Positions 6,001 to 9,000 of a stretch of DNA of 64,000 nt are shown one piece after another. Origin of the DNA: Escherichia coli (GTDB lineage Bacteria > Pseudomonadota > Gammaproteobacteria > Enterobacterales > Enterobacteriaceae). The stretch is taken from assembly GCF_017348835.2 (NCBI RefSeq), contig NZ_CP071375.1, one strand, 5' to 3'. Position 1 is the stretch's first letter, and each line of letters begins with the position of its first letter. Position numbers: made by a program.

Positions 6001-9000
6001 GACGGATGTTACAAAAAATGCAGCGTATGGCGTTGAGATAGAAAGTCTGGTGCTGGAGATAAATGCACCGGCAGCATAATAAAAAAAGAGCCAGCGACTG
6101 ACCTGAAAGAAGACGCTGGCTAAAAGGCCTTATATGTTTGTAGAGACTTATTTTTCACAGACAGCAATGATGCCTGTCAATATATTATCAATATGCGGAT
6201 TGTTTCAGTTACAGATGCTTTATTAAGGAAAAAAACAGCCAGCACTGACTTTCGGTGGAGAGGTGCTGGCTCAGAAGGATAGTTGGATTTCACATGATAC
6301 TTATGCCTGGCGGTATATTTTCTGACAGACAGTGACGGGTGTTGTCAAGATATTGTGTCATTTATAACCTGAATCAGGGGGTGGCCGGAATGTTATCTGG
6401 CATTTTTAGCAGAGCCTGAATGCCATAATCACGGCTCCCGGAGTTGGCCGTCAGTGGGTGACACTGGCGGCTTTTTTGTTTTTCTTTACTTTCATTTTCT
6501 GTCGGCGGTGACGGAGACATACATCAGATGGAAAAAATCACAACAGGTGTGTCATACACCACGTCAGCGGTGGGGACGGGATACTGGTTACTGCAGCTGC
6601 TGGACAAAGTCTCTCCGTCCCAGTGGGTGGCAATAGGTGTGCTGGGAAGTCTGCTGTTTGGCCTGCTGACGTATCTGACTAACCTGTATTTCAAAATCAG
6701 AGAGGACCGTCGTAAGGTGGCGCGGGGAGAGTAGTCGATGAATAAACAATACGAACTGGTTGTAAAATGAATATTTCTAACTGAAAAAACGTTCCATGAG
6801 GTAAGAAAAGGTCACAGGCAATCAATAACAGGACGTGATGAAAGACCCTTGCATTTGTGCGCTTTCTCTTTAGATAGCAGCAGATACTGAAAATCTGAGT
6901 TGTCGGGGAGTCAGGGATACAGCTGTGCAAGAGTTGGTCATTGTGATTCCATTGAAATCCTGTATGCCATGAAGGGCAGGATTTTATGGCTACCTGAGCT
7001 TTGGTGATAGTAAGTTGAAAATTCGCATTTTTTGCTGACATGCGTAACGAGAATCCCATAAGCAGGGAGGACTTAATTCTTCATTAACCCATGCGTTGAT
7101 ATTATGTTTCAGCCGTTGAAGCATCAGCGGTGTTAATGTTGTGGTAATAATATCCAGCGTTTTATGTGAGATCTTACCGTAAGGGTCTGCAAGAATGCTG
7201 CTTGTTGCTTCGTTATTATCTGCCATCAGAAGAAGTAACTCTGATTTAACGTTTTCTGTCATTAGTTGTAAAAATCTTCTGCGCAAACTTTCTTTACTGT
7301 TCATTTATATGGCTTCATTTGTTGTAATCTGCTGCGTCTCAAGGGATATGTTTATGAGAGCGACCATGAGTGTTGGATTATATACCTAACATATCAAGGG
7401 ATTAGAAATCGATAAATCCCCATGAACGAAAAAATAAAATACGGCCTGTCGGCTGCCGTTCTGGCGCTGATTGGTGCAGGTGCTTCTGCGCCTGAAATCC
7501 TCGACCAGTTTCTGGATGAAAAGGAAGGTAACCACACCACGGCATACCGTGATGGTGCGGGGATCTGGACCATCTGCCGTGGTGCCATTCTGGTGGATGG
7601 TAAGCCTGTTATTCCTGGCATGAAGCTGTCAAAGGAAAAATGCGACCGGGTTAATGCCATCGAACGTGACAAGGCGCTGGCATGGGTGGAGAAAAACATC
7701 CGGGTGCCGCTGACCGAACCCCAGAAAGCGGGGATCGCGTCATTCTGTCCGTACAACATTGGCCCCGGTAAGTGCTTCCCGTCGACGTTTTATAAACGAA
7801 TTAATGCAGGCGATCGAAAAGGTGCCTGTGAGGCGATTCGCTGGTGGATTAAGGACGGTGGCAGAGACTGCCGTATCCGTTCAAATAATTGCTACGGTCA
7901 GGTCTCACGGCGTGACCAGGAGAGCGCGCTGGCGTGCTGGGACATCGACAGATAGCAGAATATTTTCCTGAAAAATGACGTTGGCCAACGCGGGTGGATA
8001 ACACGAAATCCTGAAAACTGGTAAAACCTAAGTGAATAAAAGTAAAAACCCCGTTTGTTGGCAGCAAGCGGGGTTTTGTGTTTTCTGACCTTGAGTAAGG
8101 CAAGGGAGAAATTATGGGTAGGGAGGTACTTTCCCTGTGAGGAAGTATAAAAGATTCTTTCTGAGGTTGTCCATTATGAAAGGCATTGAAGTGGAGACGC
8201 CAGCCAGTCTGGATTTAACAAGAGCGGCAGCTTTTGCCATTCGTATTGTGGCCATTGCTGTTCTGGTCTGGGCAATCCGTTGGTGGTGATATGAACCGTG
8301 TTCTGTGCGTGGTTATCATTGTCCTGCTGGTGGCCTGTGGTGCGCTTAGTCTGGGGCTGAATCATTACCGTGATCACGCCATCATCTACAAAGAGCAGCG
8401 CGATAAAAAAGCCAGTGAGCTGGAGCTGGCGAACGCGACAATTACTGATATGCAGGTACGCCAGCGTGATGTCGCTGCACTTGATGCCAGATACTCGAGG
8501 GAATTAGCCGATGCGAGAGCTGAAAATGAAACTCTGCGTGCTGATGTTGCCGCTGGTCGTAAGCGCCTGCGCATCAACGCCAACTGTCCAGGCTCCTTGC
8601 GTAAAGCCCCCATCACCTCCGGCGTGGATAATGCAACCGGTCCCCGACTGGCAGAAGCCGCTGAACGGGATTATTTCATCCTCAGAGAACGGCTGATGGC
8701 AATGCAGAAGCAACTGGAAGGAGCACAGGAATATATCCGTACCCAGTGTATACCGTGATGTTTTGTTATGAAGGTGTTACTGGTAACGTTAAGGTAATTT
8801 AACAAAGAGTCAGTTCCGGACTTTATAGTGTGCTCAGTTCATGGCCAAAAACGATTTCTGTGATAAATATTTTGAATATTATTTACAGGTAAATGGAGTG
8901 GGGCGCATGGATAGAAATATTACAATAGAGTATGAAGTATATGCCCGTATTGTATGGGCAGAGAAGGCAAAAACACGGTAATTCCGTGTGTTGCCATGAT

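What the first reader, a model, noticed from the sequence alone, without database searches (positions are those of the whole stretch)
6080..6527. Two tandem ~150-bp modules with minus-strand intrinsic terminators upstream of the holin
The modules (about 6082-6210 and 6229-6370) each contain a GC-rich hairpin, agccagcg...cgctggct and agccagcac...gtgctggct. Each hairpin is preceded on the plus strand by an A7 run, so on the minus strand it reads as hairpin plus U-tract. Each is followed ~60-70 bp later by a related inverted-repeat motif (cacagacagcaatgatgcctgtcaa / ctgacagacagtgacgggtgttgtcaa). No protein-coding ORF explains this. They are candidates for leftward-transcribed small RNAs or repeated regulatory sites.
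Basis: seen in the sequence. Interest (0 to 1): 0.5.

Follow-up and report, generated by a model that had tools for sequence, protein, structure and literature searches.

The report
Known prophage small-RNA genes (PasA locus)
The two repeated modules between the prophage sialate-esterase gene and the holin gene are already-described Hfq-binding small-RNA genes (PasA and its downstream neighbour, EcOnc51/52), read leftward against the phage late operon, so the finding is real but not new.

Summary
Window 6081-6376 contains two diverged tandem copies, 148 bp apart, of one unit. On the minus strand each copy reads TTGACA-N10-CTGTCTGT, an A-rich -10-like hexamer, a short variable body, the hairpin AGCCAGCR...YGCTGGCT, and U7.

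- **Module 2 (6313..6229, minus)** is a variant of PasA. PasA is an 85-nt sRNA of EPEC E2348/69 whose stability depends on Hfq. Its Northern probe matches window 6238-6262 exactly.
- **Module 1 (about 6145..6081, minus)** corresponds to the Hfq-crosslinking peaks EcOnc51/EcOnc52 of E. coli O157 Sakai. It is also the 3' part of the 236-nt "minor" PasA read-through transcript.
- **PasC** is a third class of the same unit.
- The phage 434 GenBank record already annotates both minus-strand terminators.

The locus is not AgvB/AsxR, and there is no Rfam match here. The one mildly new point is that module 1 looks like a separate, promoter-bearing tandem paralogue of PasA/PasC. The literature treats it only as PasA read-through and states that pasA copies are not tandem duplicates. 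That point is an inference, not a demonstrated result.

Verdict: real, ordinary, already known; low interest.

The parts
4229..6079 (+). Context: 616-aa SASA-family (NanS-p-like) sialate esterase gene of the prophage late region. Its stop codon abuts module 1.
   Evidence: ORF. RefSeq annotation of 100%-identical matches. E2348/69 and Sakai homologues.
6081..6121 (-). Module 1 intrinsic terminator: hairpin 6121..6089 (8-bp GC-rich stem plus inner pairs) followed by U7 (6087..6081).
   Evidence: Annotated as a minus-strand terminator in the phage 434 record. The 3' end of the published 236-nt PasA form maps here.
6081..6145 (-). Module 1 small RNA, about 65 nt. The 5' end is predicted, +/- 3 nt. 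It equals the Hfq-CRAC peaks EcOnc52 (Sp4) and EcOnc51 (Sp12) of E. coli O157 Sakai.
   Evidence: EcOnc52 maps to window 6067-6144 and EcOnc51 to 6073-6149 (+/-6) after coordinate calibration. Fold z = -2.8. It behaves as RNA2 in RIL-seq chimeras in EPEC.
6151..6180 (-). Module 1 promoter-like element: -35 TTGACA (6180..6175), 18-nt spacer ending in TGT, -10-like GAAAAA (6156..6151).
   Evidence: Invariant in all module-1 copies collected, including the solo copies in Sakai Sp4 and on plasmids. Function is inferred.
6229..6313 (-). Module 2, a PasA-family sRNA of 85 nt. It is probably the 'PasA-2' variant. The published seed GCCAGCACCU overlaps the 5' arm of the terminator.
   Evidence: Exact probe match at 6238-6262. 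Identical to E2348/69 PasA in the last 45 nt, with 11 differences in the first 40 nt. Alignments.
6229..6271 (-). Module 2 intrinsic terminator: hairpin 6271..6237 (9-bp stem) followed by U7 (6235..6229).
   Evidence: Annotated as a minus-strand terminator in phage 434. The major 3' end of PasA maps here.
6319..6348 (-). Module 2 promoter-like element: -35 TTGACA (6348..6343), 18-nt spacer ending in TGT, -10-like CAGAAA (6324..6319). The published PasA and PasC 5' ends lie 6 nt downstream of the -10-like hexamer.
   Evidence: Function is inferred.
6081..6313 (-). Read-through transcript through both modules, 233 nt here. It is the counterpart of the 236-nt 'minor' PasA species.
   Evidence: Coordinates from PMC8550237 Table S6, mapped.
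6371..6482 (+). Separate + strand structured element. It has a weak terminator-like hairpin at 6384-6401 and a strong 11-bp terminator at 6446-6472 followed by T6. It lies 45 nt upstream of the holin start and is not part of the modules.
   Evidence: z = -2.8. All but two positions are the same in E2348/69 PP2 and PP5. Annotated as a terminator in phage 434.
6528..6734 (+). Context: class II holin gene (68 aa), the start of the lysis cassette.

Best explanation
The interval between the prophage esterase gene and the holin gene carries two tandem, diverged copies of one small-RNA gene unit. Both are transcribed leftward, antisense to the Q-dependent late operon. Each unit has four parts: a -35 TTGACA with an 18-nt spacer and an A-rich -10-like hexamer, a short variable 5' body, a GC-rich terminator hairpin, and a U7 tail. 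This hairpin-plus-U-tail 3' end is the typical Hfq-binding architecture of enterobacterial base-pairing sRNAs.

Module 2 is a PasA variant. It is an 85-nt trans-acting sRNA whose stability depends on Hfq. According to RIL-seq in EPEC, it pairs with many core and accessory mRNAs through a seed (GCCAGCACCU) that overlaps the 5' arm of its terminator.

Module 1 makes a shorter RNA of about 65 nt that was recovered on Hfq in EHEC (EcOnc51/52). It is produced from its own promoter, by read-through of the PasA terminator (the 236-nt species), or both.

**Shown, by mapping published data onto near-identical sequence:** the strand, the 3' ends at both U-tracts, the association with Hfq, and PasA's Hfq-dependent stability.

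**Inferred:** the promoter elements, the 5' end of module 1, and independent transcription of module 1.

**Not known:** the physiological targets and role in this strain.
For: - **Identity of module 2 with PasA.** The PasA Northern probe matches window 6238-6262 exactly. The PasA 85-nt coordinates map to 6313..6229. The last 45 nt are identical and the seed is conserved.
- **Read-through form.** The 236-nt minor form ends at the module 1 U-tract.
- **Near-identical loci with experimental data.** Window 6040-6545 differs from Sakai Sp12 at one position. EcOnc51 (Sp12) and EcOnc52 (Sp4) map to module 1 on the antisense strand once the shift between NC_002695.1 and NC_002695.2 is calibrated. The shift is 0 at 1.18 Mb and about 133-142 at Sp12.
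- **RIL-seq.** The module 1 region is always RNA2, the sRNA position, in RIL-seq chimeras. One example partner is escD.
- **Synteny.** The position between the sialate esterase and the holin, antisense to both, is the one described for pasA/pasC.
- **Conservation.** Ten representative distinct module sequences (from 13 collected) fall into three classes and keep the promoter-like motif and the terminator. The stem is 94% paired, with one compensatory G-C to A-U exchange between classes.
- **Prior annotation.** Both minus-strand terminators are annotated in phage 434.
- **Promoter geometry.** The published 5' ends of PasA and PasC fall at the same homologous position. It lies 6 nt after the -10-like hexamer, as expected for a primary start.
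Against: - No expression data exist for this particular strain.
- The -10-like hexamers are poor matches to TATAAT (3 of 6), and the consensus promoter scan did not call them.
- Zhu et al. state that the PasA 5' end may arise by processing of a longer transcript. That conflicts with the primary-start reading.
- Module 1 in Sp4 and module 1 in Sp12 are identical, so CRAC reads multi-map. The solo Sp4 copy therefore does not prove an independent promoter.
- Whole-transcript folding of PasA is not better than shuffles (z = -0.5). Only the terminator is clearly structured.
- Covariation support is thin: one compensatory pair among closely related sequences.
Confidence: 0.88

Rival explanations
1. 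The hairpins serve mainly as insulating terminators. They stop antisense transcription from running into the esterase gene, and the short RNAs are by-products with no trans-acting role.
For: Both hairpins are strong minus-strand terminators placed directly after the esterase stop codon. They are annotated simply as terminators in phage 434. No phenotype has been reported for PasA.
Against: Antisense transcription exists here only because each module brings its own conserved promoter-like element. PasA is abundant, stabilised by Hfq, and ranks 12th by number of RIL-seq interactions in EPEC. Its seed is conserved while its 5' body varies.
Confidence: 0.07
2. Module 1 is not a gene. It is only the second, back-up terminator of pasA, and the Hfq-bound fragment is the processed 3' end of the 236-nt read-through transcript.
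For: Pearl Mizrahi et al. list it as the minor 236-nt form of PasA. CRAC reads cannot distinguish the solo Sp4 copy from the Sp12 copy. The -10-like element is weak.
Against: - Module 1 carries the same TTGACA-N10-CTGTCTGT element as PasA and PasC, at the same distance from its body.
- This element is unchanged in solo copies on plasmids and in Sp4, whereas the plasmid copy's transcribed body carries several substitutions.
- The 5' edge of the CRAC peak (about 6144-6149) coincides with the start predicted from that promoter.
- Tree et al. list no peak on the PasA-type module itself.
- The PasA terminator is strong: a 9-bp stem plus U7.
Confidence: 0.4
3. The repeats act on the + strand late transcript. 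They could be RNA stability or processing elements at the 3' end of the esterase message, or repeated protein-binding sites (operators) in the DNA.
For: The hairpins fold equally well on the + strand (module 1 z = -2.5). The TGACA/TGTCA and GACAG/CTGTC partial inverted repeats could bind a dimeric protein.
Against: The inverted-repeat arms are short (5 bp) and are not the same pair in the two modules. There are no + strand T-tracts. The published strand-specific probe and the CRAC and RIL-seq reads are all minus strand.
Confidence: 0.05

Closest known systems
PasA (Pearl Mizrahi et al. 2021, PMC8550237; Zhu, Shabalina & Storz 2026, bioRxiv 10.64898/2026.05.13.724894)
   Same: Module 2 has the same position (esterase to holin, antisense), the same terminator and seed, an exact probe match, and an identical 3' 45 nt. 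The locus has the same two-terminator layout that gives the 85-nt and 236-nt species.
   Different: There are 11 substitutions in the first 40 nt relative to the E2348/69 copy. This fits the description of the common 'PasA-2' variant, but I could not check that against its sequence, which is held only as a figure.
PasC (same papers)
   Same: PasC has the same promoter-like element and a 5' body like module 2. Its terminator stem AGCCAGCG/CGCTGGCT and its position directly after the esterase stop codon are like module 1.
   Different: PasC is a single module with a different loop and an 11-bp stem. The PasC probe matches the window only in its first 12 nt.
EcOnc51 / EcOnc52 Hfq-CRAC peaks of E. 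coli O157 Sakai (Tree et al. 2014, PMC4104026)
   Same: They map onto sequence identical to module 1, on the antisense strand, with a predicted Rho-independent terminator.
   Different: They are crosslinking peaks only. Table S2 lists no Northern result and no end mapping for them. They do not cover the PasA-type module.
AgvB / AsxR anti-sRNAs (Tree et al. 2014; Rfam RF02702, RF02703)
   Same: They are short Hfq-binding RNAs of lambdoid prophage late regions, antisense to the late operon. They share a conserved 3' terminator half and a variable 5' end.
   Different: - Their conserved 3' half is unrelated (GUAUCUCAUGC..UUGCCCGAACCCAYUCGGGC).
- They sit upstream of the esterase gene, not downstream of it.
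- There is no Rfam match in this interval and no GCCCGAACCCA in the window.
- Module 1 shows no better-than-chance pairing with GcvB.
Tandem duplicated sRNA genes such as OmrA/OmrB (an analogy from general knowledge, cited by Zhu et al.)
   Same: Two adjacent paralogous sRNA genes share promoter and terminator regions but have different bodies.
   Different: Independent transcription of the second copy is not shown here. Zhu et al. explicitly say that pasA copies are not tandem duplicates.

Membership tests
PasA/PasC prophage sRNA family | Sequence match to the published PasA RNA and Northern probe | tested here: met
   The probe matches window 6238-6262 exactly. 74 of 85 nt are identical to E2348/69 PasA, and all of the last 45 nt.
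PasA/PasC prophage sRNA family | Location between the sialate (SASA) esterase gene and the holin/lysozyme genes, on the opposite strand | tested here: met
.
PasA/PasC prophage sRNA family | 3' stem-loop followed by poly-U (intrinsic terminator and Hfq site) | tested here: met
PasA/PasC prophage sRNA family | Conserved seed GCCAGCACCU (PasA) | tested here: met
   Present in module 2. Module 1 has GCCAGCGUCU instead, like PasC.
PasA/PasC prophage sRNA family | Expression and Hfq-dependent stability in the host of this window | not testable with these tools
   Data exist only for E2348/69 (Northern, RIL-seq) and Sakai (CRAC).
EcOnc51/52 (Hfq-CRAC peaks, Sakai) | Identity with the sequence under the published peak coordinates | tested here: met
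   Module 1 is identical to Sp4 and Sp12. Coordinates were calibrated. The uncertainty is +/- 6 nt and does not reach module 2.
AgvB/AsxR anti-sRNA family | Conserved about 42-nt 3' region, or an Rfam RF02702/RF02703 match | tested here: not met
   No Rfam hit at the gathering threshold in the whole window, and none at E<=10 in 5950-6650. The core GCCCGAACCCA is absent from the window.
AgvB/AsxR anti-sRNA family | 5' end complementary to a core sRNA (GcvB R1 for AgvB) | tested here: not met
   Module 1 5' end against GcvB: -11.1 kcal/mol, and 81% of shuffles did as well. AgvB control: -21.0 kcal/mol, 1.6% of shuffles.
Intrinsic (Rho-independent) terminator | GC-rich hairpin immediately followed by a U-tract on the transcribed strand | tested here: met
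   Met on the minus strand for both hairpins. Not met on the + strand, where no T-run follows.
Intrinsic (Rho-independent) terminator | Transcripts actually end there | tested here: met
   The published 3' ends (743415 and 743264 in E2348/69) map to the two U-tracts. This is literature data on a near-identical locus, not on this strain.
Sigma-70 promoter | -35 and -10 hexamers with 16-18 nt spacing | tested here: inconclusive
   The -35 is a perfect TTGACA and the spacer is 18 nt ending in TGn. The -10-like hexamer matches only 3 of 6, and the consensus scan did not report it.

The most novel reading that the evidence does not exclude
Module 1 is an independently transcribed third paralogue of the PasA/PasC family. 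On this reading the locus is a tandem sRNA pair analogous to OmrA/OmrB. Module 1 would have its own promoter, a distinct 5' body (GUCUCUACAAACAUAUAAGGCC) and therefore its own target set. It would also survive as a solo gene in Sakai Sp4 and on large plasmids of some EHEC/STEC strains (e.g. O26). Current literature treats it only as PasA read-through and states that pasA copies are not tandem duplicates.
Probability: 0.5. Interest if true: 0.3.

Novelty: already known. Interest (0 to 1): 0.15.

Why it matters
It matters little as a discovery. These RNAs were detected in 2014 (Hfq-CRAC in EHEC) and 2021 (RIL-seq and Northern blots in EPEC), and their distribution was surveyed in 2026.

There are two practical points. 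First, RefSeq annotation and Rfam carry nothing at this locus. As a result it keeps looking unexplained in a large minority of E. coli genomes: 670 of 5426 complete genomes hold both modules, with a median of 5 places per genome that has any match. Second, the downstream module deserves to be treated as a candidate gene in its own right when PasA function is studied. A pasA deletion or probe design that ignores it could confound results.

Tried and rejected
1. **Rfam.** Nothing in the interval at the gathering threshold, and only chance snoRNA-like hits at E>1.

2. **AgvB/AsxR membership.** This was my first guess from memory. I rejected it after reading the published sequences, because the conserved 3' half and the position are both different.

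3. **Module 1 as a GcvB sponge.** It contains ACAAACA, which resembles the GcvB R1 target consensus. I rejected the idea because the duplex energy is no better than shuffles, while the AgvB control is clearly better.

4. **Naive mapping of EcOnc51 onto module 2.** Using the published coordinates directly in NC_002695.2 places EcOnc51 on module 2. I rejected this. The AsxR and AgvB1 positions are shifted by about +137 to +142 between genome versions. The EcOnc10/EcOnc11 pair fixes the sum of the Sp10 and Sp12 shifts at 275. EcOnc51 therefore falls on module 1. At 1.18 Mb the shift is 0, shown by EcOnc05 lying inside the STnc100 homologue and by the position of the EcOnc08/21 probe.

5. **The solo Sp4 copy as proof of an independent promoter.** I rejected this argument because the Sp4 and Sp12 copies are identical and reads multi-map.

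6. **Small ORFs.** ORFs of 30-48 aa overlap the interval. One, on the minus strand at 6374-6520, is annotated as hypothetical in phage 2B8. I did not pursue them. They do not explain the repeated architecture, and other annotators leave them unannotated.

7. **The EcOnc13 probe as a coordinate anchor.** It was not found in the expected Sakai stretch, so I did not use it.
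Full report
**What is in the sequence.** Window 6080-6527 is the intergenic region between a 616-aa ORF (4229-6079, +) and a 68-aa ORF (6528-6734, +). In 100%-identical RefSeq matches these are annotated as a SASA family carbohydrate esterase and a class II holin. Upstream lie three tRNA genes (3490-3739) and an STnc100 match (3816-4006). This is the late region of a lambdoid prophage with no stx genes. The first 20 kb of the window is 99.8% identical to a prophage of E. coli strain PE164. The 506 bp around the finding is 100% identical in O157:H7 and O111:H8 genomes.

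The pattern AGCCAGC-N8-30-GCTGGCT occurs nowhere else in the 64 kb. It also occurs only at these two places, at 6157-6180 and 6325-6348, against 0.02 expected. The two 148-bp units align better than any of 1000 shuffles.

**What it is.** On the minus strand each unit reads, 5' to 3':
- ATATNTTGACA;
- an 18-nt spacer ending in TGT;
- an A-rich hexamer (GAAAAA or CAGAAA);
- a short body;
- the hairpin;
- U7.

Folded as RNA, both units give a single-stranded 5' part plus a terminator hairpin and U-tail.

The literature search found three relevant papers. Pearl Mizrahi et al. 2021 (PMC8550237) described PasA in EPEC E2348/69. PasA is a minus-strand sRNA whose stability depends on Hfq. It has an 85-nt major and a 236-nt minor species, lies between genes E2348C_0688 and E2348C_0689, and was verified by Northern blot with the oligo GCCAGCACTGACTTTCGGTGGAGAG. 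That oligo equals window 6238-6262 on the + strand.

I fetched the E2348/69 locus and aligned it with the window. The published PasA ends (743499..743415) map to window 6313..6229. The 3' end is the U-tract of hairpin 2. The 236-nt form ends at the U-tract of hairpin 1. The window copy is identical to PasA over the last 45 nt, including the proposed seed GCCAGCACCU, and differs at 11 of the first 40 nt. This fits the description of the common 'PasA-2' variant in Zhu, Shabalina and Storz 2026. I could not compare the sequences directly.

PasC, from prophage PP5 of the same strain, is a single module directly after the esterase stop codon. Its promoter region and 5' body resemble module 2, and its terminator stem resembles module 1. 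Zhu et al. place pasA and pasC between the sialate esterase gene and the holin/lysozyme genes, which is the arrangement seen here.

**Module 1.** Pearl Mizrahi et al. note EHEC homologues named EcOnc51/EcOnc52. These are Hfq-CRAC peaks from Tree et al. 2014. The window is identical to Sakai prophage Sp12 across the region apart from one base. Module 1 is also identical in Sp4, where an IS629 copy has replaced everything to the right of window position 6203.

Tree's coordinates refer to an older Sakai record, so I calibrated them in three steps.
- At 1.18 Mb the shift is 0. EcOnc05 then lies inside the STnc100 homologue, and the EcOnc08/21 probe lies at the junction of the EcOnc08 and EcOnc21 peaks.
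- At 1.27 Mb and 1.94 Mb the shift is about +137 to +142, judged from the AsxR and AgvB1 sequences.
- EcOnc10 (Sp12) and EcOnc11 (Sp10) lie in a 901-bp stretch that is 100% identical between the two prophages. This fixes the sum of the two shifts at 275.

Hence EcOnc52 corresponds to window 6067-6144 and EcOnc51 to window 6073-6149 (+/-6), both on the minus strand. Both peaks are on module 1, not on the PasA-type module. In the EPEC RIL-seq data the same stretch ('pasA.E2348C_0688.IGR') always occupies the sRNA position of chimeras, for example with escD. Module 1 RNA is therefore a real Hfq-associated species in two pathotypes.

**How it most likely works.** These are Hfq-dependent, trans-acting, base-pairing sRNAs expressed from the prophage against the direction of the late operon. 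The terminator hairpin plus U-tail provides the 3' end and the Hfq proximal-face site; this is established knowledge for this class of sRNA. The variable 5' part, and for PasA the 5' arm of the terminator, provides target recognition, according to RIL-seq motif analysis.

One reported PasA target motif, CUGGUGCUGGA, lies at the 3' end of the esterase gene itself (window 6047-6057).

The promoter assignment is my inference. Three observations support it:
- the perfect -35 hexamer;
- the invariance of the whole TTGACA-N10-CTGTCTGT block within each class;
- the published 5' ends of PasA and PasC, which fall at the same homologous nucleotide 6 nt after the -10-like hexamer.

Two observations weaken it. 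The -10-like hexamer is a poor match to the consensus. Zhu et al. mention possible 5' processing of PasA.

**Comparative support.** The pair of modules is present in 670 of 5426 complete E. coli genomes. Genomes with any match have a median of 5 places, and 104 places are on plasmids. In the phage collection it is present in Stx1a-converting phages, H-19B, YYZ-2008 and classical phage 434. The phage 434 record annotates two minus-strand terminators and one + strand terminator in this interval.

I collected thirteen distinct module sequences, which fall into three classes: module-1 type, PasA type and PasC type. Across ten representatives, the terminator stem forms standard pairs in 94% of cells. 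It shows one compensatory G-C to A-U exchange between classes and one G-U wobble. This agrees with a conserved hairpin, but the sequences are close relatives and the covariation is thin.

**What it is not.** It is not a member of the AgvB/AsxR anti-sRNA family. Those RNAs have an unrelated conserved 3' half and sit upstream of the esterase gene. Rfam, which holds the AgvB and AsxR models, gives no hit in this interval. Module 1 contains ACAAACA, so I tested a GcvB-sponge role. Its predicted duplex with GcvB (-11.1 kcal/mol) is matched by 81% of shuffles. The AgvB control (-21.0 kcal/mol) is matched by only 1.6%.

**The only new nuance.** Zhu et al. state that pasA copies are not products of tandem duplication and that the closest pair is 22 kb apart. 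The alignment here shows that the unit directly downstream of pasA is a diverged paralogue with the same promoter-like and terminator elements. It persists alone in Sakai Sp4 and on plasmids. It is also the part that crosslinks to Hfq in EHEC, and no peak is listed on the PasA-type module. Whether it is transcribed on its own or only by read-through remains open. I put independent transcription at about even odds.

**Rest of the stated interval.** Window 6371-6482 is a different element on the + strand. It folds strongly (-43.7 kcal/mol, z = -2.8) and ends in an 11-bp hairpin plus T6, 45 nt before the holin start. It matches E2348/69 PP2 and PP5 at all but two positions and is annotated as a terminator in phage 434. 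A plausible role, inferred from lambdoid late-gene biology, is to stop transcription that is not Q-modified from reaching the lysis genes.

**Verdict.** The feature is already known as PasA, EcOnc51/52 and the phage 434 terminators. Interest is low.

Noticed in passing
window 6371-6482 (+): A strongly structured + strand element (z = -2.8) ends in an 11-bp terminator (6446-6472) plus T6, just upstream of the holin start. It matches E2348/69 PP2 and PP5 at all but two positions and is annotated as a terminator in phage 434. It may insulate the lysis genes from transcription that is not antiterminated, or it may be the 3' end of a + strand RNA.
   Followed up: partly
window 4007-4115 (-): A minus-strand terminator (hairpin 4035..4014 plus T7) sits back-to-back with the STnc100 terminator. 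The Northern probe for EcOnc08/21/42 (Tree 2014; RNA of about 271 nt) matches window 4081-4115. An Hfq-bound antisense RNA of that length ending here would start inside the esterase gene and overlap its start codon (4229).
   Followed up: partly
window 3816-4006 (+): Rfam STnc100 match (138 bits). The identical sequence in Sakai Sp4 lies under the Hfq-CRAC peak EcOnc05 (about 222 nt). Zhu et al. relate STnc100 to PasD.
   Followed up: partly
window 6047-6057 (+) versus 6262-6271: The 3' end of the esterase ORF contains CTGGTGCTGGA. Its GGTGCTGG core is complementary to the PasA seed/terminator arm (CCAGCACC). The same site is listed as a PasA RIL-seq target in EPEC.
   Followed up: partly
L003 2131 onward (Sakai Sp4); L016 and L017 (plasmids): IS elements repeatedly cut this intergenic region. 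IS629 lies 22 nt upstream of the module 1 -35 in Sp4. Solo module-1 or solo PasA-type copies sit among IS3, IS600 and IS110 family elements on plasmids of about 80-100 kb.
   Followed up: partly
Sakai genome coordinates (L006, L007, L010, L011): Coordinates in Tree et al. 2014 Table S2 are offset from the current RefSeq record NC_002695.2 by 0 at 1.18 Mb and by about +133 to +142 from 1.27 Mb onward. Using the table directly against the current record misplaces the peaks.
   Followed up: yes
window 53030-53452 (+) and 34123-34210 (-): An Rfam cspA thermoregulator match (159 bits) and a tRNA-Ser(TGA) gene. They are probably host or prophage-border features unrelated to the finding.
   Followed up: no
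window 2748-3461 (+): A 237-aa ORF just upstream of the tRNA genes. From memory, its C-terminus looks like an AraC-type helix-turn-helix regulator, as in prophage-encoded regulators of EHEC. I did not test this.
   Followed up: no
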